Source: a virus
Taxonomy: Duplodnaviria > Heunggongvirae > Uroviricota > Caudoviricetes
Strand: one strand, 5' to 3'
Length of the DNA: 19,938 nt
Virus record (IMG/VR): IMGVR_UViG_2711768019_000002
The notes under the pieces are model-generated. The model saw only the letters and a list, made by a program, of their open reading frames with translations, made no database searches and was not told the origin of the DNA. Made by a program: the position numbers and the translations under genes. Positions 1 to 9,071 of this stretch are shown piece after piece (positions within the stretch are counted from its first letter, which is position 1; each line of letters opens with the position of its first letter).

Positions 1-3000
1 ATACGCTATACCGTTAAAAATAATGGGCGGAATAATAATCTGGCGGTCAAAGTTATGATCATCGCTTATGGTGACTGTAACCGTCCCGTTTGGTGTTTCC
101 GTGTTACCCCACGTACCAGCCTGTTTCGGAAATGATTTGGATACAGCTTTAACGAAGTCACCTCTGACCTGAGTCGCCTCCAGCATGCCCTTAATCGTAC
201 AGTTTTCATTTACCGTGACATTGTTGAGCGTCCCGGCGTTCGCATTCACACTGCCACTGATATCCGCATTTTTAGCGGTCAGCTTTCCGTCCGGAGTCAG
301 GGAAAATGCCGATGGATTTCCACCGCTGGTAATGGTGGGGGCCGTCAGGCGTTTCAGGAACACGTCGTTCATGAATATCTGATCGCCCTGACCAACAAAC
401 ATCGGTTTTGTGTTGCCATTCGCAGGATTAACCATCGCAATCCTGTCCGCCGCCAGCAGCACCTGACTCTGCATGCCGTCAGGGGTGTTCTCAATACCGG
501 CACCAATACCCGCGATATAAAGGCGTCCGTCCTGCATCTGCTGCAGCTTCACAGCCCACATGCTGTTCAGGTTATTATTTGTATCAACCTGAACCTTCTG
601 TATCTGCTGAATTGCCGCACTCTGGTCTTCCAGTTTCTTATTGACGGTCTGCGTGATTTCATTGCTGACATCCGTAATGGACGTCCTGATTTCAGCCAGG
701 TCAGGCGCAAGCTGACCGTTATCAATCTGCGTCCACAGCTCCTGAGCCAGATGGGTTTTCCCTATCTCGCCTTTGAAAAAATCCAGATAACCGGATGCAT
801 CATCACTCGGCTGACCAACAGCCTCCACGAATGCCGATTTGCCAACGGTGTTCACACTGCGGATATAAAAGTAATAATCATGGCCCGGTTTGATATTGAT
901 ACTGGCGGCTATCCAGTACAGCGCCGTGCCAAGATAGCGTGCTGTGGTTTCAACCTGCCTGATATCCGCAATCCGCTTTTCCGAGAACCAGAACTCAAAC
1001 TGTACCGTCGGATCATAAACCGCAAGATGCGGCGTGGCGGTTATCTGAAAATAGCCCGGCGTCAGCTCAATCCGCGACAGCGCTGCCGGTGCGGCAATCC
1101 GGAACGATACCGACGCCGGATCGCCCTGCTGCCCCCACGCATTTACTGCCCGGACTGTCAGCCTGTAGTTCCCCAGCGCCAGTTGTGTGAAGCGGTAAGT
1201 GGTTTCCGTCGTCCGGGCCGTGCTGACCAGCCGCTCACTGCCGTCATCCGCTGTTACGGTCAGACGGAGCAGGAAGCTCACGCCCTTCACCACCTTCGGC
1301 GTGTCCCAGCGCGCCAGCACCTGATATTCCCCGCTGTCTGCGGTGACTTCGGCAGTCAGGTGCTGCACCGCTGGCGGCGTGACACCATTCACCGTGCCGC
1401 TCTGGTCGCCGTCAAAGTGCGCCCCGTTATCCACGATGGCTTCTTTTTCCGGCACATGCTGCACGGCGGTGATGGCATACGTGCCGTCGTCGTTCTCACG
1501 GATACTCACGCAGCGGAACAATCGCTGGTGCAGCGTCGGCAGCTTCAGCCCCCACACGCTGTATTCAGCAACACCGTCAGGAACACGGCTCACTTTTACC
1601 TTCACGCCGTCGGTGACGGACTGGACCTCCACGCTGACCGGATTCCCCTGCCCGTCAACCAGGCTTATCAGCGTGGTGCCGGAGGATGGCAGCGTGATTT
1701 CACGGTCGAGCGTCAGCGTCCGGGTCTGGCTGTTCACCGCCAGCACGCGCCCGCCGGTGCGGATACCGGCATAGTCATCATCGCAGATTTCAATGACATC
1801 GCCCGGTACATGACGAAGCCCTTCAGCACCCACGCTGAAATCCACGGTCTGCGTCTCCAGCAGTTCCGTTTTAATCAGCCACAGCCCGGCGCGGTGTGCC
1901 TGCCCCCGGCTGGTACAGCCAAAGGCATCCATCTTCGTGACGTTACGACCGTAACGGACAATGGCCTGCGTATCCTCCACAAGCTCTGTCGCCGTCTCCC
2001 AGCCGTTATCCGGGTCAATCCAGTTCACCTCAACGGCATTATGGCGGTCTTTCAGGGCGCTGAAACTGTAGCGGAACGGCGCGCCATCATCCGGCATCAC
2101 CACATTACTGCGGTTATAGGCCCACACCTTATCCGACTGTCGGTCCTGCACGAACGTCAGCGTCTGCCCGTTCCATACCGGCATACAGCGCATCGCCGAG
2201 CAGAAATCACTGAGCACATCCCACGCCTTGCGCTGTGTGGTCAGCCAGGCATTACAGGTGATGCGCGGCTCCGTGCTGCCAAAGCCGTCCGGCACCGACT
2301 GGTCACAGTACTGGCCGATGACATACAGCGCCCATTTATCCACATCTGCCGCACCAAGACGTTTCCCCATGCCATAGCGCGGATGGGTCAGCATATCCCA
2401 CAGACACCAGGCCATGTTGTTGCTGTATGCCGGTTTTAACGTTCCGTCCCAGATACCGCTGTATTGCCGCGTCTGCGGATTATAGTTCGACGGCACCTGC
2501 AGAATGCGCCCGCGAANNNNNNNNNNNNNNNNNNNNNNNNNNNNNNNNNNNNNNNNNNNNNNNNNNNNNNNNNNNNNNNNNNNNNNNNNNNNNNNNNNNN
2601 NNNNNNNNNNNNNNNNNNNNNNNNNNNNNNNNNNNNNNNNNNNNNNNNNNNNNNNNNNNNNNNNNNNNNNNNNNNNNNNNNNNNNNNNNNNNNNNNNNNN
2701 NNNNNNNNNNNNNNNNNNNNNNNNNNNNNNNNNNNNNNNNNNNNNNNNNNNNNNNNNNNNNNNNNNNNNNNNNNNNNNNNNNNNNNNNNNNNNNNNNNNN
2801 NNNNNNNNNNNNNNNNNNNNNNNNNNNNNNNNNNNNNNNNNNNNNNNACGCTGTATCTGAACCAGCAGGCGAACTTCAGACGGATTCCTGTCTCCCTTTG
2901 AGGTGGTTTCCACCAGTGCCTGTACACCGAAGGTAAAACGCAGTCGGTCAATGTTTGCCGACGTGATGGTCCGGGTGATCGGCGTGTCATATTTCACTTC

Positions 3001-3276
3001 CGTACCCAGCACCGTCTCGGAGCCGGAGGATTCAAATCCCTCCGGCGGTGACTGCTCCTGCTCACCTGCCCGGAACACCACCGTGACGCCGGAGATGTTG
3101 GTATTCCCCTCACTGTCCAGCACCGGCGTACTGTTCAGCAGCACGCTTTTTAATCCATCCACCGGACCTTCAACCGGCCCTTCGCTGATGGCATCGATCA
3201 CACTCAGCAGCTGCGTGGACTTCAGGTTGTCCTTCGCTTCGCGCGGGGTATGCCCCTTACTGCTGCCTTTACCCAT
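1..3276 (-). CDS. J: Tail tip/central tail fibre protein J (host specificity); partial, C-terminal ~40 codons lie beyond the window start; codons 144-254 masked by N-run
   Basis: Minus-strand ATG at 3274-3276 gives [13 protein letters not shown], matching lambda J N-terminus. Hand translation at 2461-2514 gives [18 protein letters not shown] and at 781-900 [29 protein letters not shown], both lambda J-like. Frame stays open to coordinate 1. Downstream of ~770 the sequence diverges from lambda. Confidence 0.9.
2517..2847. other. Run of 331 N (masked or unsequenced) inside gene J
   Basis: Literal n characters in the sequence. J codon phase (lowest codon coordinate 1 mod 3) is identical on both sides of the run. 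Confidence 0.99.
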
Positions 3277-3336
3277 TCGTCATGCTCCATAAACGATAAA
3301 ACCGCCCGGAGGCGATTTCACATAAAACATTTTGCA

Positions 3337-4008
3337 TCAGCGACCAATCACCACAACCTGACCACCGTCCCCTTCGTCTGCCGTGCTGATCTCCTGAGAT
3401 ACCACACGTGACCCCACGCGCATTTCACCATACAGAACAGGCATAACATTGCCCTGGGCAACCATGTTATCCAGTGAGGAGAAATAGGTGTTCTGCTTAC
3501 CGTTATCCGTTGTCTGTGTGCGGGGAGTTCTGGCTTTCGGTGCCAGCATCTGAGCCACACCGCCGAGCACCATACTGGCACCGAGAGAAAACAGAATGCC
3601 GGTCATACCACCGGCACCAATGGCAGCCCCCCATGCTGCAAGGGTGGCTCCGGCGGTAAAGAATGATCCGGCAATGGCGGCTGCTCCCAGGACAATCTGG
3701 AATACACCACCTGACTTGGCCCCGGCGACTCTGGGAACAATATGAATCACAGCGCCGTCAGGCAGAGCCTCATGTAACTGTGCCGTTAATCCGGACGTGC
3801 TAACATCCTGCCCGGCAATACGCACCTGATACCAGCCGTCGCTCAGCTTCTGACGAAACGCAGGGAGCTGTGTGGCCATCGCCCGGATGGCTTCGGCACC
3901 CGTTTTCACACGAAGGTCGATGCGGCGGCCAAATCGTTGCAAATCCCCGTAAAGGCAGATGCGTGCCATGCCCGGTGACGCCAGAGGGAGTGTGTGCGTC
4001 GCTGCCAT
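3337..4008 (-). CDS. I: Tail tip assembly protein I (N-terminal ubiquitin-like domain, then Gly-Gly and a hydrophobic Gly/Ala-rich segment)
   Basis: 223-aa ORF beginning MAATHTLPLASPGMARICLYGDLQRF, same length and sequence as lambda gpI. Overlaps K 3' end by 103 nt as in lambda. Confidence 0.9.
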   Translation of the reverse strand: MAATHTLPLASPGMARICLYGDLQRFGRRIDLRVKTGAEAIRAMATQLPAFRQKLSDGWYQVRIAGQDVSTSGLTAQLHEALPDGAVIHIVPRVAGAKSGGVFQIVLGAAAIAGSFFTAGATLAAWGAAIGAGGMTGILFSLGASMVLGGVAQMLAPKARTPRTQTTDNGKQNTYFSSLDNMVAQGNVMPVLYGEMRVGSRVVSQEISTADEGDGGQVVVIGR

Positions 4009-4649
4009 TTGTCGGTATACCTCTCTCGTTTGCTCAGTTGTTCAGGAATATGGTGCAGCAGCTCGCCGTCACCACAGTAAATGGCGGCATGATTCGGCAC
4101 CGATGAACCAAAACAGCACAGCAGCACATCGCCCGGCTGCGCCGCTGACAACGGCACCTGATACAGCCCTGTGGCCTCCAGATTATCCAGATAGAGATTC
4201 TGACCGTGACGCCACCAGTCATCCTCACGATGAAAATCCGGCATCTCAATCCCCGCCAGATGGTAAGCATCCCGGAACAGCGTGTAACAGTCCGTCACCC
4301 CGTGCTCAAAGCGCCGCCCGGTAAGATGTGGCACACAGCGGAACTTGTGAATCGCCCCCCGGCAGACCAGCCACCACGGCAAATCACTCTGCACCTGCAG
4401 CCGCCGGTCGGCCTCACTCAGCCAGGGCAGACCACCGGGGTGGCTGTGGACCAGTGCCACAATCTCACCCTGCATCTCTGCCTGCAGCCAGTCTTCCGGC
4501 GACATACGGAAATACGCCTCCGGCTCACCGGAGATATTCACGCAGGGGAAATATCTTTCCCCCTCCGGCGTTCTTACCACGAAGCCGCACGACTCCGCTG
4601 GAGCACATCGCCGGGCGTGCGCCAGAATCGCTGATTCTGTCTCTGTCAT
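3906..4649 (-). CDS. K: Tail tip assembly protein K (JAB/MPN metallopeptidase domain plus NlpC/P60 domain); longest in-frame ORF. The canonical lambda-type start would be the ATG at 4503-4505 (199 aa).
   Basis: 247-aa ORF. Residues 49-247 correspond to the 199-aa lambda K. JAMM motif HSHPGGLPWLSEAD (HxH-x7-S-x2-D) present, with an upstream PAESCG motif in the N-terminal extension. The ATG at 4505 has a GGAGG Shine-Dalgarno ~11 nt upstream; the ATG at 4649 sits 5 nt after the L stop with no clear SD. Confidence 0.85.
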   Translation of the reverse strand: MTETESAILAHARRCAPAESCGFVVRTPEGERYFPCVNISGEPEAYFRMSPEDWLQAEMQGEIVALVHSHPGGLPWLSEADRRLQVQSDLPWWLVCRGAIHKFRCVPHLTGRRFEHGVTDCYTLFRDAYHLAGIEMPDFHREDDWWRHGQNLYLDNLEATGLYQVPLSAAQPGDVLLCCFGSSVPNHAAIYCGDGELLHHIPEQLSKRERYTDKWQRRTHSLWRHRAWHASAFTGICNDLAAASTFV

Positions 4650-4654
4650 GGGAT

Positions 4655-5353
4655 TTACTGCGAAAGTTTGTTAATGGAAAGGAAGCCGCCAAAGTTGCCG
4701 ACGTTATTGCGAAACTTACAGCCACTCAGGCATTTGCTGCATTTATCCTTCGTGATGTCGGACGTTGGCTGGTCATATTCATCCGCGACCGCCGGACCGT
4801 GATAACCGCACTCATCGCCGCGATAGGTCCAGGTGCAGGTGTTGGCCAGCATGATACGTCCCGGAAAAACAGCGCCATCTGTTTCCGTCGGCGTGGACAG
4901 TACAAAAGAGGCACTCACCGCGCTCAGTTCGCTGCACTGCTCAATGCGCCAGCGGCTGATCACCTCCTGCTCCGGATCGGCGTCACTGTTTCCGTTGACG
5001 AAGTTCACCGCATCCAGAAAACGGGCGTAAACCTTACGCCGGACCACCGTTCCGCCGACCAGACTCTGTAGATCTTCCGCCATCCCGGTGACCATACCGT
5101 ACAGGTTAGAAACCATCAGCGTGGGGCGCGTACTGGTGCCTTTGCCATTCAGTTCAAAACCACTCCCCTGAATGGGATACGGCTGATACTGTCGCCCCTG
5201 CCAGGTGACCGGCTCACCTTTTTCGTTCTGCTCATTACAGAAAAAATAACGTTCTCCACCGACCTCTGTCAGATCGATTTCCCAGAGCACCACGCTGGCC
5301 GACTGCTCCGCACGGGTGCATTCATTCAGTGTTTCCTGCCGGATATCCTGCAT
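4655..5353 (-). CDS. L: Tail tip assembly protein L (C-terminal Cys cluster)
   Basis: 232-aa ORF, MQDIRQETLNECTRAEQSAS..., same length as lambda gpL. ATGA start/stop overlap with M. Cysteines in C-terminal ...RGDECGYHG...DKCSKCLSGCKF. Confidence 0.92.
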   Translation of the reverse strand: MQDIRQETLNECTRAEQSASVVLWEIDLTEVGGERYFFCNEQNEKGEPVTWQGRQYQPYPIQGSGFELNGKGTSTRPTLMVSNLYGMVTGMAEDLQSLVGGTVVRRKVYARFLDAVNFVNGNSDADPEQEVISRWRIEQCSELSAVSASFVLSTPTETDGAVFPGRIMLANTCTWTYRGDECGYHGPAVADEYDQPTSDITKDKCSKCLSGCKFRNNVGNFGGFLSINKLSQ

Positions 5354-5682
5354 CAGTTCACCACCTGTTCAAACTCTGCGCTGAACTCAACACGCAGCAT
5401 ACTGACCCGCGACGACCATTTTGCGCAGGTCACCTTTATCTGCCGCCACTCATAAGGCGGCGTCCACAGAAAGGCTTTCCAGCCCCCGTGCTCTTCCAGA
5501 AACGACTCCAGTACCATGGCCTCCTCACGGGGGACAGAAAGCGTCACGCTGTACGTTTTCAGGTTGGCATTCAGCCCGGCAGGCGCTCGCTGGGAATAGC
5601 CATCACCAAAGCGCACCTTTCTTACAGAAGGGGCCGAAGCCACATCCATACCGGGTTTCACTTTCCAGCGGAAGGTTTTCAT
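5353..5682 (-). CDS. M: Tail tip assembly protein M
   Basis: 109-aa ORF MKTFRWKVKPGMDVASAPSV..., lambda gpM length. 4-nt overlap with H. Confidence 0.9.
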   Translation of the reverse strand: MKTFRWKVKPGMDVASAPSVRKVRFGDGYSQRAPAGLNANLKTYSVTLSVPREEAMVLESFLEEHGGWKAFLWTPPYEWRQIKVTCAKWSSRVSMLRVEFSAEFEQVVN

Positions 5683-8240
5683 CGTCCACCTCCGGAGAAC
5701 AGGCCACCATCACGCATCTGTGTCTGAATTTCATCACGGGCACCCTTGCGGGCCATGTCATACACGGCCTTCATCATCTGTGGACCTGGCAGACCATTCG
5801 TACCGTCGTTCTGAATCACCACGTGATTGTTCTGATTAAAATTAATGCCTTCAGCCCGCCGCATCTGCGCCGGACTTCCGGCACCGCCCACATAACCACC
5901 TTCCGCATAGCCGCGCATCAGCCGGTAGAGATTCCCCACGCCAATCCGGCTGGTTGCCTCCTTCGTGAAGACAAATTCACCACGGTGAACAATCCCCGCT
6001 GGCTCATATTTGCCGCCGGTTCCCGTAAATCCCCCGGTTGCAAAATGGAATTTCACCGCAGCGGCCTGAATGGCTGTACCACCTGACGCGGATGCGCCGC
6101 CACCAACAGCCCCGCCAATGGCGCTGCCGATACTCCCGACAATCCCCACCATTGCCTGCTTAAGCAGAATTTCTGTCATCATGGACAGCACGGAGCGGGT
6201 GAAGCTGCGCCAGTTCTGTTCACTGCCGGTCAGCATCGCCGCCATATTCTGTGCAATACCATCAAAGGTCTGCGTGGCTGCACTTTTAACCTGTGACATA
6301 CTGTCCGTGGCGCTCTCTTCCCACTCACTCCAGCCGGACTTCAGGCCTGCCATCCAGCTCCCGCGAAGCTGGTCTTCAGCCGCCCAGGTCTTTTTCTGCT
6401 CTGACATGACGTTATTCAGCGCCAGAGGATTATCGCCATACTGTTCCTTCAGGCGCTGTTCCGTGGCTTCCCGCGCTGCCTGCCGGTCAGTCAGCCCCCG
6501 GTTTTTCGCATCAATGGCTGCCCGTTTTGCCCGTTGCTGCTGTGCGAATTTATCCGCCTGCTGCGCCAGCGCATTCAGGTGCTCCTGATACGTAACCTTG
6601 TCACCAAGTGCAGCCAGCTGGCGTTTGTACTCCAGCGTCTCGTCTTTATGCGCCAGCAGGGATTTCTCCTGTGCGGACAGCTGGCGACGTTGTGCCGCCT
6701 CCTCCAGTACCGCGAACTGACTTTCTGCCTTCCACAAATCCCGGCGCTGCTGGCTGATTTTCTCATTCGCTCCGGCATGCTTCTCCAGCGTCCGGAGTTC
6801 TGCCTGAAGCGTCAGCAGGGCCGCATGAGCACTGTCTTCCTGACGATCGCCCGCATACACCTTCACGCCGGACTGTTTCGGCTTTTTCAGCGTCGCTTCA
6901 TAATCCTTTTTCGCCGCCGCCATCAGCGTGTTGTAATCTGCCTGCAGGATTTTTCCGTCTTTCAGTGCCTTGTTCAGTTCTTCCTGACGGGCGGTATATT
7001 TCTCCAGCGGCGTCTGCAGCCGTTCGTAAGCCTTCTGCGCCTCTTCGGTATATTTCAGCCGTGACGCTTCGGTATCGCTCTGCTGCTGCGCATTTTTGTC
7101 CTGTTGACGCTGTTGATCTACCCTCTTTTGGGCTGCATCCCGCTCCAGGCGTTTTTTTTCACGATCATCCCAGTAACGCGCCCGTGCTTCATCGTTAACG
7201 AAATAATCATCCTTGCGCAGATTCCAGATGTCGTCTGCTTTCTTAAACGCAGCCTCTGCCTTAATCAGCATCTCCTGCGCGGTATCAGGACGACCAATAT
7301 CCAGCACCGCATCCCACATGGATTTGAATGCACGTGCAGTCCTGTCTGCCCAGGTCTCCAGCGTGCCCATGTTCTCTTTCAGGCGGCGGGTCTGGTCATC
7401 AAACCCTTTCGTTGCGGCCTCGTTCGCCGCCTGCAATGCCCCGGCTTCATCGCCGGAACGCTGCAACTGAGCAACATACGCAATCTGCTCCGCCGTCACG
7501 TTATGGAACTGGCGTGCCATCGCCGTCAGCCCCGACGTCGGGTCTGTGGTCAGCTTCCCGAAGGCTTCAGCGACCTTGTCCACCTCCACGCCGGATGCAT
7601 AGGAGAAACGCGCCACACTCTGGCTGATGGACGCAATCTGAGCCTCACCGCTTACCCCCGCCTTAACCAGTGCGCTGAGTGACTCGCTGGTCTGGTTAAA
7701 CGTCAGCCCTGCCGCCTGCCCGGCTCTGGACAGGACCAGCATACGATCTGCCGTCAGTCCCGCCTGATTACCGGAAAGGACCAGCGTTTTGTTGAAATCG
7801 GACAGGGTTGAGTTGCCCTGATACCAGGCATACGCCAGCGCACCGGTCGCCACCGCCAGCGAGGTGGCCCCCACCATCGGCAGGGTGATCGCGCCGGCAA
7901 GCCCCCTGAACATGGGGATCATCCCGCCGAAGGAGTCCTTAACCTGACCACCCTGTTGCAGCAGGATCAGCCAGGGATTCTGCCCCCCTGCAAGCTGCGT
8001 GGCCACGTCGGTGAACTGTGCAGGCAGCATACGCATGGCGGCTTTATACTGCCCGACGGAAATCCCCGCTTTCTGTGCAGCCAGCGCCTGTCGGCTCAGC
8101 GACTGTTCAACGACTGCCGCTGTTTTTTTCGCATCACTTTCCGTACCGGAAAAATGACGCCTGACTCTGGCCATCTGCTCGTCAAATCTGGCCGCATCCA
8201 GACTCAAATCAACGACCAGATCGCCTACCGGTTCAGCCAT
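5679..8240 (-). CDS. H: Tail tape measure protein H
   Basis: 853-aa ORF MAEPVGDLVVDLSLDAARFDEQ..., same length as lambda gpH. Long Ala/Gln/Glu-rich coiled-coil central region, Gly-rich C-terminal part. Confidence 0.95.
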   Translation of the reverse strand: MAEPVGDLVVDLSLDAARFDEQMARVRRHFSGTESDAKKTAAVVEQSLSRQALAAQKAGISVGQYKAAMRMLPAQFTDVATQLAGGQNPWLILLQQGGQVKDSFGGMIPMFRGLAGAITLPMVGATSLAVATGALAYAWYQGNSTLSDFNKTLVLSGNQAGLTADRMLVLSRAGQAAGLTFNQTSESLSALVKAGVSGEAQIASISQSVARFSYASGVEVDKVAEAFGKLTTDPTSGLTAMARQFHNVTAEQIAYVAQLQRSGDEAGALQAANEAATKGFDDQTRRLKENMGTLETWADRTARAFKSMWDAVLDIGRPDTAQEMLIKAEAAFKKADDIWNLRKDDYFVNDEARARYWDDREKKRLERDAAQKRVDQQRQQDKNAQQQSDTEASRLKYTEEAQKAYERLQTPLEKYTARQEELNKALKDGKILQADYNTLMAAAKKDYEATLKKPKQSGVKVYAGDRQEDSAHAALLTLQAELRTLEKHAGANEKISQQRRDLWKAESQFAVLEEAAQRRQLSAQEKSLLAHKDETLEYKRQLAALGDKVTYQEHLNALAQQADKFAQQQRAKRAAIDAKNRGLTDRQAAREATEQRLKEQYGDNPLALNNVMSEQKKTWAAEDQLRGSWMAGLKSGWSEWEESATDSMSQVKSAATQTFDGIAQNMAAMLTGSEQNWRSFTRSVLSMMTEILLKQAMVGIVGSIGSAIGGAVGGGASASGGTAIQAAAVKFHFATGGFTGTGGKYEPAGIVHRGEFVFTKEATSRIGVGNLYRLMRGYAEGGYVGGAGSPAQMRRAEGINFNQNNHVVIQNDGTNGLPGPQMMKAVYDMARKGARDEIQTQMRDGGLFSGGGR

Positions 8241-9071
8241 ACCGGACTCCTCCTGCGATCCCTTCTGATACTGTCATCAGCATTACGTCATCCTCCGTCA
8301 TGTCCGCCACATCCGGGGAAGCGGGGATAACTTCATTCCCGTCCGGGCCAAAGCGGACACCTCCGGCAAGCCCTGCCGCTTTCTGCATCAGCACATCATC
8401 TTCAGGCTCTTCGTCAGCCTCGCGCCGGTTCAGCAGACTGAAATCCAGCGGATGCATCTCCGGATCGCTGAAAAACAGGCTGAGCACGGTGTACGTCAGC
8501 CCGGAAAAGTGCATATCCAGCAGAACATCATGAAAATAATGGGTACTGTAAAAGCGGTGCCAGTCGGCATACTCCGTGGATGACATCCCGGCAAGCATGG
8601 CGCGCCAGTCGGGTCGCCCCATCTCACGCGCCAGTTTCAGGGCAAAACTCAGCTCACCGTCGAACACTTTCCCGCAGAAACAGGCTCTGCAGGCCCGGCG
8701 TCCTCTGCCTGTTCAGGAGCATCATTCACCACAAACTCATACATACCGGACAGCCGGTACACCACGTTTTCAGCATGAGAAATTGCCTCTGTGGGCCAGG
8801 TGGTAAGCACTTCCTGCTCAATCTGTTTAACGGCTTCATTCATGGACGGCATCTGCGTCTTCTTCGGATGGTTATGCCACAGGGACATCGCAACCACAAA
8901 AGCGCCGGTTCTGATGGCGTCTTCCACAGTAAACTTCCGGTTGCTGTCTGACTCCGCCTGTTCTGCCTGCCGTTTCATCAGGTCGAGATGCTCAATACGC
9001 TGCAGGGCTGACAGTTCAGAAAGCGTGACGGTCACACCGTTATGTTCAAATGATTCGGTTTTCAGGAACAT
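8233..9071 (-). CDS. GT: Tail assembly chaperone G-T fusion, made by programmed -1 ribosomal frameshift from G into the T frame
   Basis: G frame (8649-9071) and T frame (8233-8667) overlap at the slippery heptamer GGGAAAG. T frame has no ATG of its own (begins at GTG inside the slip site) and ends 8 nt inside H. Confidence 0.85.
8649..9071 (-). CDS. G: Tail assembly chaperone G
   Basis: 140-aa ORF MFLKTESFEHNGVTVTLSELSALQRIEHLDL..., lambda gpG length. Ends ...AGKCSTVS then TGA. Confidence 0.92.
   Translation of the reverse strand: MFLKTESFEHNGVTVTLSELSALQRIEHLDLMKRQAEQAESDSNRKFTVEDAIRTGAFVVAMSLWHNHPKKTQMPSMNEAVKQIEQEVLTTWPTEAISHAENVVYRLSGMYEFVVNDAPEQAEDAGPAEPVSAGKCSTVS
8667..8673 (-). other. 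-1 programmed frameshift slippery heptamer G GGA AAG for G-T
   Basis: Plus strand reads ctttccc at 8667-8673, which is GGGAAAG on the minus strand. In the G frame it reads G-GGA-AAG, three codons before the run into the G stop. Confidence 0.85.

What the first reader, a model, noticed from the sequence alone, without database searches (positions are those of the whole stretch)
3337..4649. Overlapping K-I pair looks like a peptidase and ubiquitin-like substrate module
K carries a JAMM metallopeptidase motif and a C-terminal papain-like NlpC/P60 region (Cys and His-containing CYTLFRDAYHL...HAAIYCGDGELLHHIP). I begins with a compact ~100-residue domain that ends in Gly-Gly (...VIHIVPRVAGAKSGG, codons 100-101 at 3706-3711), followed by a hydrophobic Gly/Ala-rich segment (VFQIVLGAAAIAGSFFTAGATLAAWGAAIGAGGMTGILF). 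This matches a ubiquitin-like beta-grasp domain followed by a processing site. The two genes overlap by 103 nt, which favours coupled expression. Comparative-genomics work has proposed that lambda-like tail-tip assembly uses such a Ubl/JAB system; the sequence here supports that and identifies a candidate cleavage point after GG.
Basis: partly seen in the sequence, partly recalled or inferred. Interest (0 to 1): 0.45.

Follow-up and report, generated by a model that had tools for sequence, protein, structure and literature searches.

The report
Lambda tail-tip genes K and I
These are the well-known phage lambda tail-tip assembly genes K (a double peptidase) and I (a ubiquitin-like domain fused to the plug of the tail tip); the idea that K trims I was published in 2006, fits newer structures, and is still untested.

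Summary

The peptidase-substrate reading is exactly the Iyer, Burroughs and Aravind (2006) proposal. Newer work fits it. Lambda cryo-EM shows only the C-terminal part of gpI and no gpK in virions. [quoted passage not shown]

The proposed cleavage point is the weak part. Across 61 diverse homologues the invariant motif is P92-x3-G96-[A/S]97, which aligns with the terminal Gly-Gly of ubiquitin and MoaD. A Gly-Gly further downstream occurs in only 38 of 61 and is absent next to intact JAB domains, including the F-pyocin protein.

Verdict: already known, ordinary, with an open and testable question.

The parts
3906..4649 (-). Gene K (lambda gpK type), 247 aa. A non-structural tail-tip assembly protein with two peptidase domains.
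   Evidence: ORF. 96% nucleotide identity to lambda and phage 434, where it is annotated as K. Pfam Prok-JAB plus NLPC_P60. The long 247-aa start is needed to include E19 of the JAMM motif.
4356..4640 (-). JAB/MPN+ domain of K (residues 4-98). JAMM motif: E19 (4593-4595) and H68-S-H70-x7-S78-x2-D81 (4407-4448).
   Evidence: Pfam PF14464, E=5e-14. E19, H68, S69, H70, S78 and D81 are invariant in 18 homologues that are 27-53% identical to K. Weak sequence match to MPN protein 2kks_A.
3978..4319 (-). NlpC/P60 papain-like domain of K (residues 111-224). C121 at 4287-4289, H187 at 4089-4091, H199 at 4053-4055.
   Evidence: Pfam PF00877, E=5.8e-13. D120, C121, H187, H199 and H200 are invariant in 18 homologues.
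3906..4008 (-). K-I overlap of 103 nt. It encodes the C-terminal tail of K (residues 214-247) and the first 34 residues of I in the -1 frame.
   Evidence: No XXXYYYZ slippery heptamer is present. The K tail is conserved in a subset of homologues, including one where K and I do not overlap (Mannheimia).
4020..4027 (-). Shine-Dalgarno-like GAGAGAGG, 11 nt upstream of the I start codon and inside K.
   Evidence: Sequence read. Phage 434 annotates a ribosome-binding site at the equivalent place.
3337..4008 (-). Gene I (lambda gpI type), 223 aa plus stop codon. Precursor of the tail-tip plug / tail-hub internal protein.
   Evidence: ORF. 98% identical over residues 1-223 to PDB 8iyk chain I, 'Tail tip assembly protein I'. 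Five substitutions relative to lambda, none in residues 82-163.
3718..3972 (-). Ubiquitin-like beta-grasp domain of I (residues 13-97).
3718..3735 (-). Family-invariant tail motif P92-R-V-A-G96-A97. This is the positional equivalent of the L-R-L-R-G-G end of ubiquitin and the P-P-V-T-G-G end of MoaD, and is the best-conserved candidate scissile region.
   Evidence: In 58 diverse homologues: P92 58/58, G96 56/58, and position 97 is A, S or G in 57/58.
3706..3717 (-).
   Evidence: G100 36/58 and G101 48/58. A GG doublet anywhere in the tail occurs in 38/61 homologues, and the spacer length varies. pLDDT is below 50 over residues 97-103. A published lambda model is reported as resolved 'from position 101 onward' (PMC11101478).
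3538..3705 (-). Uncharged Gly/Ala-rich hydrophobic segment (residues 102-157). In the published structures these are helices H1 and H2, which surround the C-terminus of the tape-measure protein and are predicted to insert into membrane.
   Evidence: No charged residues in 56 positions, hydropathy +1.2 to +1.6. G108 invariant, 58/58. Structural role taken from PMC11101478, PMC10721106 and PMC12617516.
3340..3537 (-). C-terminal plug / beta-strand domain of I (residues 158-223). It is retained in the virion as a trimer in the tail-tip lumen.
   Evidence: Identity to chains of 8iyk and 9e7m. Residues 134/135-223 are modelled in two independent lambda structures. The only gpI peptide found in lambda virions by mass spectrometry fits residues 202-223.

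Best explanation
This is the K-I pair of a lambda-type prophage tail module.

Gene I encodes a precursor with four parts:
- a ThiS/MoaD/SAMP-like ubiquitin-like beta-grasp domain (residues 13-97);
- a short variable spacer (98-101);
- two uncharged Gly/Ala-rich helices (102-157);
- a C-terminal plug domain (158-223).

Three copies of the C-terminal roughly 120 residues are built into the lumen of the tail tip (gpJ/gpL). [quoted passage not shown] After receptor binding they are released towards the outer membrane. All of this is shown by published structures.

The ubiquitin-like domain is not part of the mature particle. This is inferred for lambda and is supported by mass spectrometry for the F-pyocin homologue.

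The most likely mechanism is as follows. The Ubl is an N-terminal pro-domain that keeps the hydrophobic hairpin soluble, or blocks premature docking. It is then removed by the JAB/JAMM zinc peptidase domain of gpK, an essential non-structural assembly factor encoded immediately upstream. The cut is inferred to lie in the flexible tail between G96 and G101. By homology with the ends of ubiquitin and MoaD, and by conservation, the bond after G96-A97 is at least as likely as the bond after G101.

The role of the second, equally conserved NlpC/P60 centre of K is unknown. It may make a second cut in I or act on another tail protein.
For: Identity: 96% nucleotide identity to lambda/434 with K, I, L and J annotated. 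I is 98% identical to 8iyk chain I.

Domains: Pfam hits. Both catalytic centres of K are invariant in 18 diverse homologues.

Conserved linkage: a JAB+NlpC/P60 protein lies next to a PF06805 protein in about 30 distinct loci from many host genera.

Loss of the N-domain:
- Lambda virion models start at residue 101, 134 or 135, and gpK is absent.
- Lambda virion mass spectrometry found one gpI peptide at 9.87% coverage, i.e. 22 residues. The only tryptic 22-mer is 202-223.
- In F-pyocin, N-terminal peptides of PA0640 are present in stalled tips and absent from mature particles. Deleting the gpK homologue gives tip-less tubes. The protease is described as unknown.

Prior proposal: Iyer et al. 2006.

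Cleavage register.
Against: No experiment shows that gpK cleaves gpI.

The F-pyocin preprint reports that PA0640 expressed alone in E. coli loses its N-terminal region through 'unknown host proteases'. So the K homologue is not strictly required for trimming in that setting.

N-terminal peptides of PA0640 are still found in stalled tips even though the K homologue is present. Cleavage would therefore have to be late or triggered, or the cut Ubl would have to stay bound.

The lambda mass spectrometry evidence is a single peptide. Cryo-EM cannot tell a removed domain from a disordered one.

Ala or Ser at the position equivalent to ubiquitin G76 is unusual for JAMM substrates.

The exact site is unknown. 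Residues 99-158 form one 60-residue tryptic peptide, which probably explains why bottom-up proteomics has not mapped the new N-terminus.
Confidence: 0.55

Rival explanations
1. The ubiquitin-like domain of I is removed, but not by K. A host protease or simple instability of the linker does the trimming. K's peptidase centres act on something else, for example gpH -> gpH* (whose protease is unknown) or another tip protein, or K acts mainly as a chaperone.
For: Recombinant PA0640 alone in E. coli loses its N-terminal region. The protease for gpH cleavage is explicitly unknown. gpH has a Gly/Ala-rich uncharged stretch at residues 697-729, similar in composition to the I linker. K has two catalytic centres, which is more than one cut requires.
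Against: The Ubl-JAB pairing is the conserved feature across very distant phages. JAMM enzymes paired with ThiS/MoaD/SAMP-type Ubls are a known functional unit (Iyer 2006; the best structural neighbours are such Ubls). gpK is not detected in tails or virions, whereas gpH is reported to be cleaved only after the tail is assembled.
Confidence: 0.25
2. The N-terminal domain of I is not cleaved at all in lambda. It stays attached through a flexible spacer and is invisible to cryo-EM. K acts elsewhere.
For: All cryo-EM papers simply report the region as unresolved. Ge and Wang treat it as still present and even speculate that it has an enzymatic role. The lambda mass spectrometry coverage is too thin to exclude it.
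Against: F-pyocin mass spectrometry detects the N-terminal peptides in stalled tips but not in mature particles. Several good tryptic peptides exist in residues 17-63, yet the only peptide seen in lambda virions fits 202-223. Residue 101 lies inside the closed tip lumen around gpH, leaving little room for three 10-kDa domains (inference).
Confidence: 0.1
3. The NlpC/P60 domain of K is a cell-wall (peptidoglycan) endopeptidase used during infection or lysis. The Ubl/JAB features are incidental.
For: Most characterised NlpC/P60 proteins are peptidoglycan endopeptidases (established knowledge of the family). The lambda enzyme that would breach peptidoglycan at entry has not been identified.
Against: gpK is absent from lambda virions and from F-pyocin particles by mass spectrometry and cryo-EM, so it cannot act at entry. 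K has no signal peptide or membrane segment visible in the sequence. K mutants fail at tail-tip assembly, not at lysis (for F-pyocin; lambda genetics from memory).
Confidence: 0.05
4. The long overlap serves a programmed -1 frameshift that makes a K-I fusion protein, as G/GT does upstream in the same operon.
For: I is in the -1 frame relative to K. Databases hold K-I fusion proteins carrying PF00877 plus PF06805.
Against: There is no XXXYYYZ heptamer in the overlap. The database fusions have five different junctions, are N-terminally truncated and are single-member clusters, as expected from indel errors. I has its own Shine-Dalgarno sequence and start codon. Many relatives have only 4-26 nt overlaps, or genes inserted between K and I.
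Confidence: 0.02

Closest known systems
Phage lambda gpK and gpI (tail tip assembly proteins K and I; UniProt-style names as in PDB 8IYK, 8IYL, 8K35, 8XCG, 9E7M)
   Same: Same genes. 96% nucleotide identity across the region and 98% protein identity for I. Same 103-nt overlap, same L-K-I-J order, and the same motifs.
   Different: Five conservative substitutions in I (M44L, Q67R, A81T, T164I, M189L relative to lambda). None lies in the tail or spacer.
The Ubl-JAB tail assembly module proposed by Iyer, Burroughs and Aravind 2006 (TAPI/TAPK; PMC1779556)
   Same: Identical idea: a ThiS/MoaD-like Ubl in protein I, JAB plus NlpC/P60 in protein K, and JAB predicted to release the Ubl at its C-terminal-most glycine.
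   Different: The paper predates all the tail-tip structures and stated that I is not incorporated into the tail. It is now known that the C-terminal half is incorporated.
F-pyocin PA0639 (gpK homologue) and PA0640 (gpI homologue, 'tip plug' / THIP); PDB 25vf; preprints 10.64898/2026.02.24.707460 and PMC12874032
   Same: Same architecture. Only the C-terminal part (residues 127/128-200) is seen in particles. Two predicted hydrophobic helices precede it. N-terminal peptides are lost on maturation. Deleting the K homologue abolishes tip assembly.
   Different: It is a bacteriocin, not a phage. The tail reads V-I-G-S-K-Q-S-G-L, i.e. G-S is kept but there is no Gly-Gly. The authors do not mention the Ubl fold or the JAB domain and call the protease unknown.
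Prokaryotic JAMM-Ubl pairs: HvJAMM1-SAMP1/2, Mec+-CysO, QbsD-QbsE (named from memory)
   Same: A JAMM zinc peptidase works on a ThiS/MoaD-type beta-grasp protein at its C-terminal glycine tail. SAMP1 and CysO are among the best structural matches of the I domain.
   Different: Those Ubls end in Gly-Gly and are activated by an E1-like enzyme for sulfur transfer or conjugation. Here the homologous positions are Gly-Ala/Ser. The Ubl is the leader of a structural protein, and no E1 is known in the module.
Eukaryotic ubiquitin-ribosomal protein fusion precursors (UBA52, RPS27A) processed by deubiquitinases (from memory)
   Same: An N-terminal ubiquitin fold is made in one chain with an unrelated cargo and is removed by a dedicated peptidase. 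This is a functional analogy for a chaperone or pro-domain role.
   Different: No homology of the cargo. The enzymes there are mostly cysteine deubiquitinases. The analogy has not been tested for gpI.
Phage T5 pb3 plug domain
   Same: It occupies the same place in the tail-tip lumen as the gpI trimer and closes the tube.
   Different: It is an insertion within the hub protein itself, with no Ubl leader or K-type peptidase reported.

Membership tests
Lambda gpI family (Pfam PF06805 Lambda_tail_I plus C-terminal plug) | Profile match above the curated cut-off | tested here: met
   95.1 bits against a cut-off of 23.8, residues 14-97
Lambda gpI family (Pfam PF06805 Lambda_tail_I plus C-terminal plug) | Full-length similarity to the protein solved in the lambda tail tip | tested here: met
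   E=1.9e-139 over residues 1-223 to 8iyk_I
Lambda gpI family (Pfam PF06805 Lambda_tail_I plus C-terminal plug) | Position between K and J in an H-M-L-K-I-J tail-tip gene order | tested here: met
   ORFs; J starts at 3276; phage 434 annotation
ThiS/MoaD/SAMP/Urm1-type ubiquitin-like beta-grasp | Beta-grasp fold | tested here: met
ThiS/MoaD/SAMP/Urm1-type ubiquitin-like beta-grasp | Conserved glycine in the flexible tail four residues after the last strand | tested here: met
   G96 in 56/58 homologues, at an invariant distance from P92. Register with MoaD G80.
ThiS/MoaD/SAMP/Urm1-type ubiquitin-like beta-grasp | Terminal Gly-Gly at the homologous position | tested here: not met
   The homologous pair is G96-A97 (A 46, S 9, G 2 of 58). 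The lambda GG at 100-101 is four residues further on and is not conserved (38/61).
ThiS/MoaD/SAMP/Urm1-type ubiquitin-like beta-grasp | Partner E1-like adenylating enzyme | not tested
   None is annotated in the lambda/434 tail module. The rest of the window was not scanned with profiles.
JAMM/MPN+ metallopeptidase (Pfam PF14464 Prok-JAB) | Profile match above the curated cut-off | tested here: met
   52.6 bits against a cut-off of 25, residues 4-98
JAMM/MPN+ metallopeptidase (Pfam PF14464 Prok-JAB) | E-x(n)-H-[ST]-H-x7-S-x2-D zinc site (motif as given in PMC300881) | tested here: met
   E19, H68-S-H70, S78 and D81. Invariant in 18 homologues, with spacing of 7-9 in relatives.
JAMM/MPN+ metallopeptidase (Pfam PF14464 Prok-JAB) | Zinc-dependent cleavage after the C-terminal glycine of a Ubl | not testable with these tools
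   Needs biochemistry. No report found in four literature searches.
NlpC/P60 papain-like peptidase (Pfam PF00877) | Profile match above the curated cut-off | tested here: met
   49.2 bits against a cut-off of 23, residues 111-224
NlpC/P60 papain-like peptidase (Pfam PF00877) | Catalytic Cys, His and a third polar residue | tested here: met
   C121, H187 and H199/H200 are invariant in 18 homologues
NlpC/P60 papain-like peptidase (Pfam PF00877) | Peptidoglycan or peptide hydrolase activity | not testable with these tools
Programmed -1 frameshift pair (lambda G/GT type) | XXXYYYZ slippery heptamer in the overlap | tested here: not met
   None found in or near the 103-nt overlap

The most novel reading that the evidence does not exclude
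gpI is a true ubiquitin-like fusion precursor. Its Ubl leader chaperones or masks a membrane-active hydrophobic hairpin. The JAB domain of gpK then removes it at the conserved G96-[A/S]97 tail, as a checkpoint that licenses docking of the tape-measure protein and tube. This would identify the 'unknown protease' of the F-pyocin and lambda tip-plug maturation step. It would also be the first experimentally grounded Ubl-JAMM processing step in virus assembly. A bolder extension is that the second (NlpC/P60) centre of K makes the unexplained gpH -> gpH* cut.
Probability: 0.4. Interest if true: 0.5.

Novelty: already known. Interest (0 to 1): 0.22.

Why it matters
The gene pair itself is textbook lambda, and the Ubl/JAB reading has been in print since 2006, so nothing new is being discovered here.

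What the check adds is a link between that old prediction and recent structural work, which does not cite it. [quoted passage not shown] One preprint shows that this domain is lost on maturation and calls the protease unknown. The obvious candidate is encoded next door and has fully conserved catalytic residues.

The comparison also moves the most likely cleavage register from Gly100-Gly101 to the invariant Gly96-Ala/Ser97. This changes which point mutants and which fragment masses should be looked for: 12.68 kDa for 98-223 against 12.35 kDa for 102-223 in lambda.

Tried and rejected
- Alignment-based locus search: the search for related loci with the diverse alignment A1 failed because no stretch was conserved enough.
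- Single-protein locus scans: the lambda I query returned only near-identical loci. Scans with three distant homologues gave 1, 1 and 24 loci. Diversity was instead obtained from tblastn against phage records plus 16 annotated regions.
K was therefore judged from profiles and invariant residues only.
- Wasted literature search: one search was swamped by 'GPI' anchor papers.
- LfgB/YfjY: this JAMM protease of a cryptic prophage turned out to be unrelated to K.
- K-I fusion proteins: considered as evidence of frameshifting and rejected. The junctions vary, the clusters have single members, and there is no slippery site.
- Profile search against PDB sequences: it reached the MoaD-related protein 1v8c only at E=0.31. 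Sequence alone is therefore not convincing, and the fold comparison was needed.
- Terminator scan: the simple scan did not pick up the I-J intergenic hairpin that phage 434 annotates as a terminator.
- Ubl without JAB: no clear counter-example was found. In one IMG/VR family (L084-L088) and one Vibrio prophage (L119), K is simply not within the fetched flank.
Full report
**1. What is at the coordinates**

The window carries, on the minus strand, the late tail operon of a lambda-type prophage. The ORFs are H (5679-8240), M (5353-5682), L (4655-5353), K (3906-4649) and I (3337-4008). J starts at 3276.

The 1.55 kb around the finding is 96-97% identical to lambda-like phages and phage 434. There the same ORFs are annotated as tail tip proteins K and I, flanked by L and J.

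K and I overlap by 103 nt, with I in the -1 frame.

**2. K**

Pfam places a prokaryotic JAB domain at residues 4-98 and an NlpC/P60 domain at residues 111-224. Both are well above their curated cut-offs.

The JAMM zinc site is complete: E19, H68-S-H70, S78 and D81. So is the papain-like triad: C121, H187, H199/H200.

I aligned 18 K homologues taken from next to I homologues in phages of Escherichia, Klebsiella, Mannheimia, Ralstonia, Burkholderia, Bordetella and Stenotrophomonas, and from IMG/VR contigs. They are 27-53% identical to K. Every one of these catalytic residues is invariant.

The 247-aa reading frame is needed, rather than the historical 199-aa one, to include E19. Lambda K was already listed as a JAMM protein in 2003 (PMC300881).

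**3. I, the N-terminal domain**

Pfam's Lambda_tail_I domain covers residues 14-97.

I collected diverse homologues with an exhaustive HMMER search. It found 3154 cluster representatives at E<=0.001 and listed the best 150. I aligned the 61 that cover both ends of the protein.

An AlphaFold2 model of residues 1-110, built on 57 of these sequences, is confident. Mean pLDDT is 83.5 and pTM is 0.72, with blocks of 89-96 between residues 11 and 90. The strands are at 13-19, 29-34, 59-64 and 87-93, and the helices at 37-47 and 49-57. Confidence collapses below 50 from residue 97.

Ubiquitin, SUMO and UBX domains follow lower down. Foldseek gives the same ranking.

No solved structure of this family contains the N-terminal domain. 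None of 8iyk, 9l9p or 25vf appears among the fold matches.

**4. I, the rest**

Residues 102-157 contain no charged residue and are strongly hydrophobic.

In the published lambda structures this stretch forms two helices, H1 and H2, followed by a plug at 159-175 and beta strands. Three copies sit in the tip lumen. They hold the C-terminal coiled coil of the tape-measure protein and close the tube. After LamB binding only residues from 167 onward remain visible, and the helices are thought to enter the outer membrane (PMC11101478; PMC10721106; PMC12617516).

So the 'hydrophobic Gly/Ala-rich segment' is not just a linker. It is a functional part of the mature protein.

**5. Is the N-terminal domain removed?**

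Three independent lambda reconstructions model gpI only from residue 101, 134 or 135 onward. None of them sees gpK.

The supplementary mass spectrometry table of Xiao et al. lists gpI with one peptide and 9.87% coverage, which is 22 of 223 residues. The only tryptic 22-mer of lambda gpI, allowing up to three missed cleavages, is the C-terminal peptide 202-223. Residues 17-63 offer four good tryptic peptides. This evidence is thin but points the same way.

The strongest evidence comes from an F-pyocin preprint (10.64898/2026.02.24.707460):
- the gpI homologue PA0640 is visible only from residue 127;
- its N-terminal peptides are absent from mature particles but present in tips stalled by deletion of the tube, adaptor or tape-measure genes;
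- deleting the gpK homologue PA0639 gives tip-less tubes;
- the authors call the step a proteolytic checkpoint and say the mechanism of cleavage is unknown.

Neither that preprint nor a second F-pyocin preprint (PMC12874032) mentions the ubiquitin-like fold. I found no mention of the JAB domain in either.

One observation cuts against K being required. PA0640 expressed alone in E. coli also loses its N-terminal region.

**6.

Iyer, Burroughs and Aravind (2006) described the ThiS/MoaD-like Ubl of tail assembly protein I. They also described the glycine-rich linker and C-terminal domain, the JAB plus NlpC/P60 architecture of K, and the conserved gene neighbourhood. [quoted passage not shown]

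The only addition was the specific site after Gly100-Gly101.

**7. Testing the specific site**

In 58 diverse homologues the invariant positions at the end of the domain are P92 (58/58) and G96 (56/58). Position 97 is A, S or G in 57/58, and G108 in the first hydrophobic helix is 58/58. G100 is present in only 36/58 and G101 in 48/58.

Counting any Gly-Gly between G96 and the hydrophobic segment gives 38 of 61. The spacer also varies in length.

The distance P92-G96 is fixed, and the local sequence VIHIVPRVAGA lines up without gaps with ubiquitin TLHLVLRLRGG and MoaD EVAFFPPVTGG. A profile of the I domain aligns MoaD G80 to I G96 and ubiquitin R72 to I R93. The terminal Gly-Gly of those proteins therefore corresponds to G96-A97.

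I then asked whether a downstream Gly-Gly goes with the JAB domain. It does not. K homologues with an intact JAMM motif sit next to I homologues with these tails:
- G-S-K-K-A-G (HK022 and several IMG/VR phages);
- G-A-K-Q-A-G (Ralstonia);
- G-S-K-R-Q-G (Stenotrophomonas);
- G-A-G-K-W-G (L082).

PA0640, the one homologue with experimental evidence of trimming, reads G-S-K-Q-S-G.

The report that one lambda model is resolved from residue 101 fits a cut anywhere between 96 and 101. My conclusion is that the cut, if made by a JAB domain docking on the Ubl body, is at least as likely after G96-A97 as after G101. Gly100-Gly101 is not the defining feature.

**8. The overlap**

The 103-nt overlap is real but is not a family trait. 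Other phages have overlaps of 4-58 nt. HK022, Mannheimia 535AP2 and Bordetella PHB09 have extra small genes between K and I.

In 39 of 58 diverse homologues the residue aligned with lambda Met14 is a methionine, and several begin there. The first 13 residues of lambda I are low-confidence in the model. Met1 does have a GAGAGAGG Shine-Dalgarno sequence 11 nt upstream.

A frameshift fusion is unlikely. There is no slippery heptamer, and the database K-I fusions have five different junctions and look like indel artefacts.

**9. Mechanism and confidence**

Shown:
- the identity of the genes;
- both catalytic sites of K;
- the beta-grasp fold of I;
- the conserved pairing of K and I;
- incorporation of only the C-terminal part of I into particles.

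Supported but indirect:
- proteolytic removal of the Ubl during maturation.

Inferred:
- that the JAB domain of K is the enzyme;
- that the cut lies at 96-101;
- that the Ubl acts as a solubilising or masking leader for the hydrophobic hairpin.

Unknown:
- the job of the NlpC/P60 centre.

Rivals are a host or other protease with K acting elsewhere, an uncleaved but disordered domain, a muralytic role for K, and a frameshift fusion. They are weighed in the rival section.

[quoted passage not shown] The domain is a small Ubl with no hydrolase-like neighbours in either fold search.

**10. Verdict**

The functional reading is a faithful restatement of a published and still untested hypothesis about textbook genes. 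The one original element, the Gly100-Gly101 site, is not favoured by comparative data.

Novelty: already known. Interest is low to modest. The residual value is that the K-cleaves-I experiment is simple, would close a gap that recent structural papers leave open, and now has better-defined mutants and expected fragment masses.

Noticed in passing
window 2517-2847: A run of 331 N (masked sequence) lies inside gene J, which starts at 3276 on the minus strand. Its length is not a multiple of 3, so the ORFs listed around it (for example 2436-2990 minus, and the X-filled plus-strand ORFs) are artefacts.
   Followed up: partly
window 6054-6152 (minus strand; gpH residues 697-729): The tape-measure protein has an uncharged Gly/Ala-rich stretch (MVGIVGSIGSAIGGAVGGGASASGGTAIQAAAV), similar in composition to the hydrophobic segment of I. 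It lies where the gpH -> gpH* cut is placed in the literature, and the protease for that cut is unknown (PMC12617516). Whether the second peptidase centre of K is involved is pure speculation.
   Followed up: no
window 3967-3969 (Met14 of I) versus 4006-4008 (Met1): In 39 of 58 diverse I homologues the residue aligned with lambda Met14 is a methionine, and several begin there. Many database entries for near-identical E. coli proteins are 210 aa long, i.e. they start at Met14. The first 13 residues are low-confidence in the model. Met1 has the better Shine-Dalgarno sequence. The true start appears not to have been determined experimentally.
   Followed up: partly
database proteins P0009, P0012, P0014, P0017, P0020, P0034 (relatives of window 3337-4649): These are K-I 'fusion' proteins in public databases with five different junction points inside the overlap and truncated N-termini. 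They are most likely indel or assembly errors, not natural fusions.
   Followed up: yes
database protein P0163: A 2783-aa predicted protein with 23 tandem stretches about 41% identical to I residues 10-63. It looks like a translated DNA repeat of unknown origin.
   Followed up: no
L108 (HK022) 1215-1439; L111 (Mannheimia phage 535AP2) 1473-1598; L115 (Bordetella phage PHB09) 1127-1486: Small extra ORFs (annotated as morons in HK022) are inserted between K and I in some relatives. In Mannheimia there is also an annotated terminator. Tight K-I coupling is therefore dispensable.
   Followed up: partly
window 8667-8673 (minus strand): The GGGAAAG slippery heptamer lies near the end of the G ORF (8649-9071), where it overlaps the T ORF (8233-8667). 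This is the classic lambda G/GT -1 frameshift site.
   Followed up: no
window 3277-3336 (I-J intergenic region, minus strand): The hairpin CGCCTCCGGGCGG followed by TTTTAT lies between I and J. Phage 434 annotates a terminator at the equivalent place, but the simple terminator scan did not report it.
   Followed up: partly
L084-L088 (IMG/VR) and L119 (Vibrio phage Va_91-7-154_p41): These are I homologues with a Ubl domain but no K homologue within the 1.6-2.5 kb fetched upstream. In L084 the end of an NlpC/P60 ORF lies 2.3 kb upstream. In L119 the upstream genes are a zinc-ribbon protein and divergent regulators. They are possible exceptions to the K-I adjacency.
   Followed up: partly
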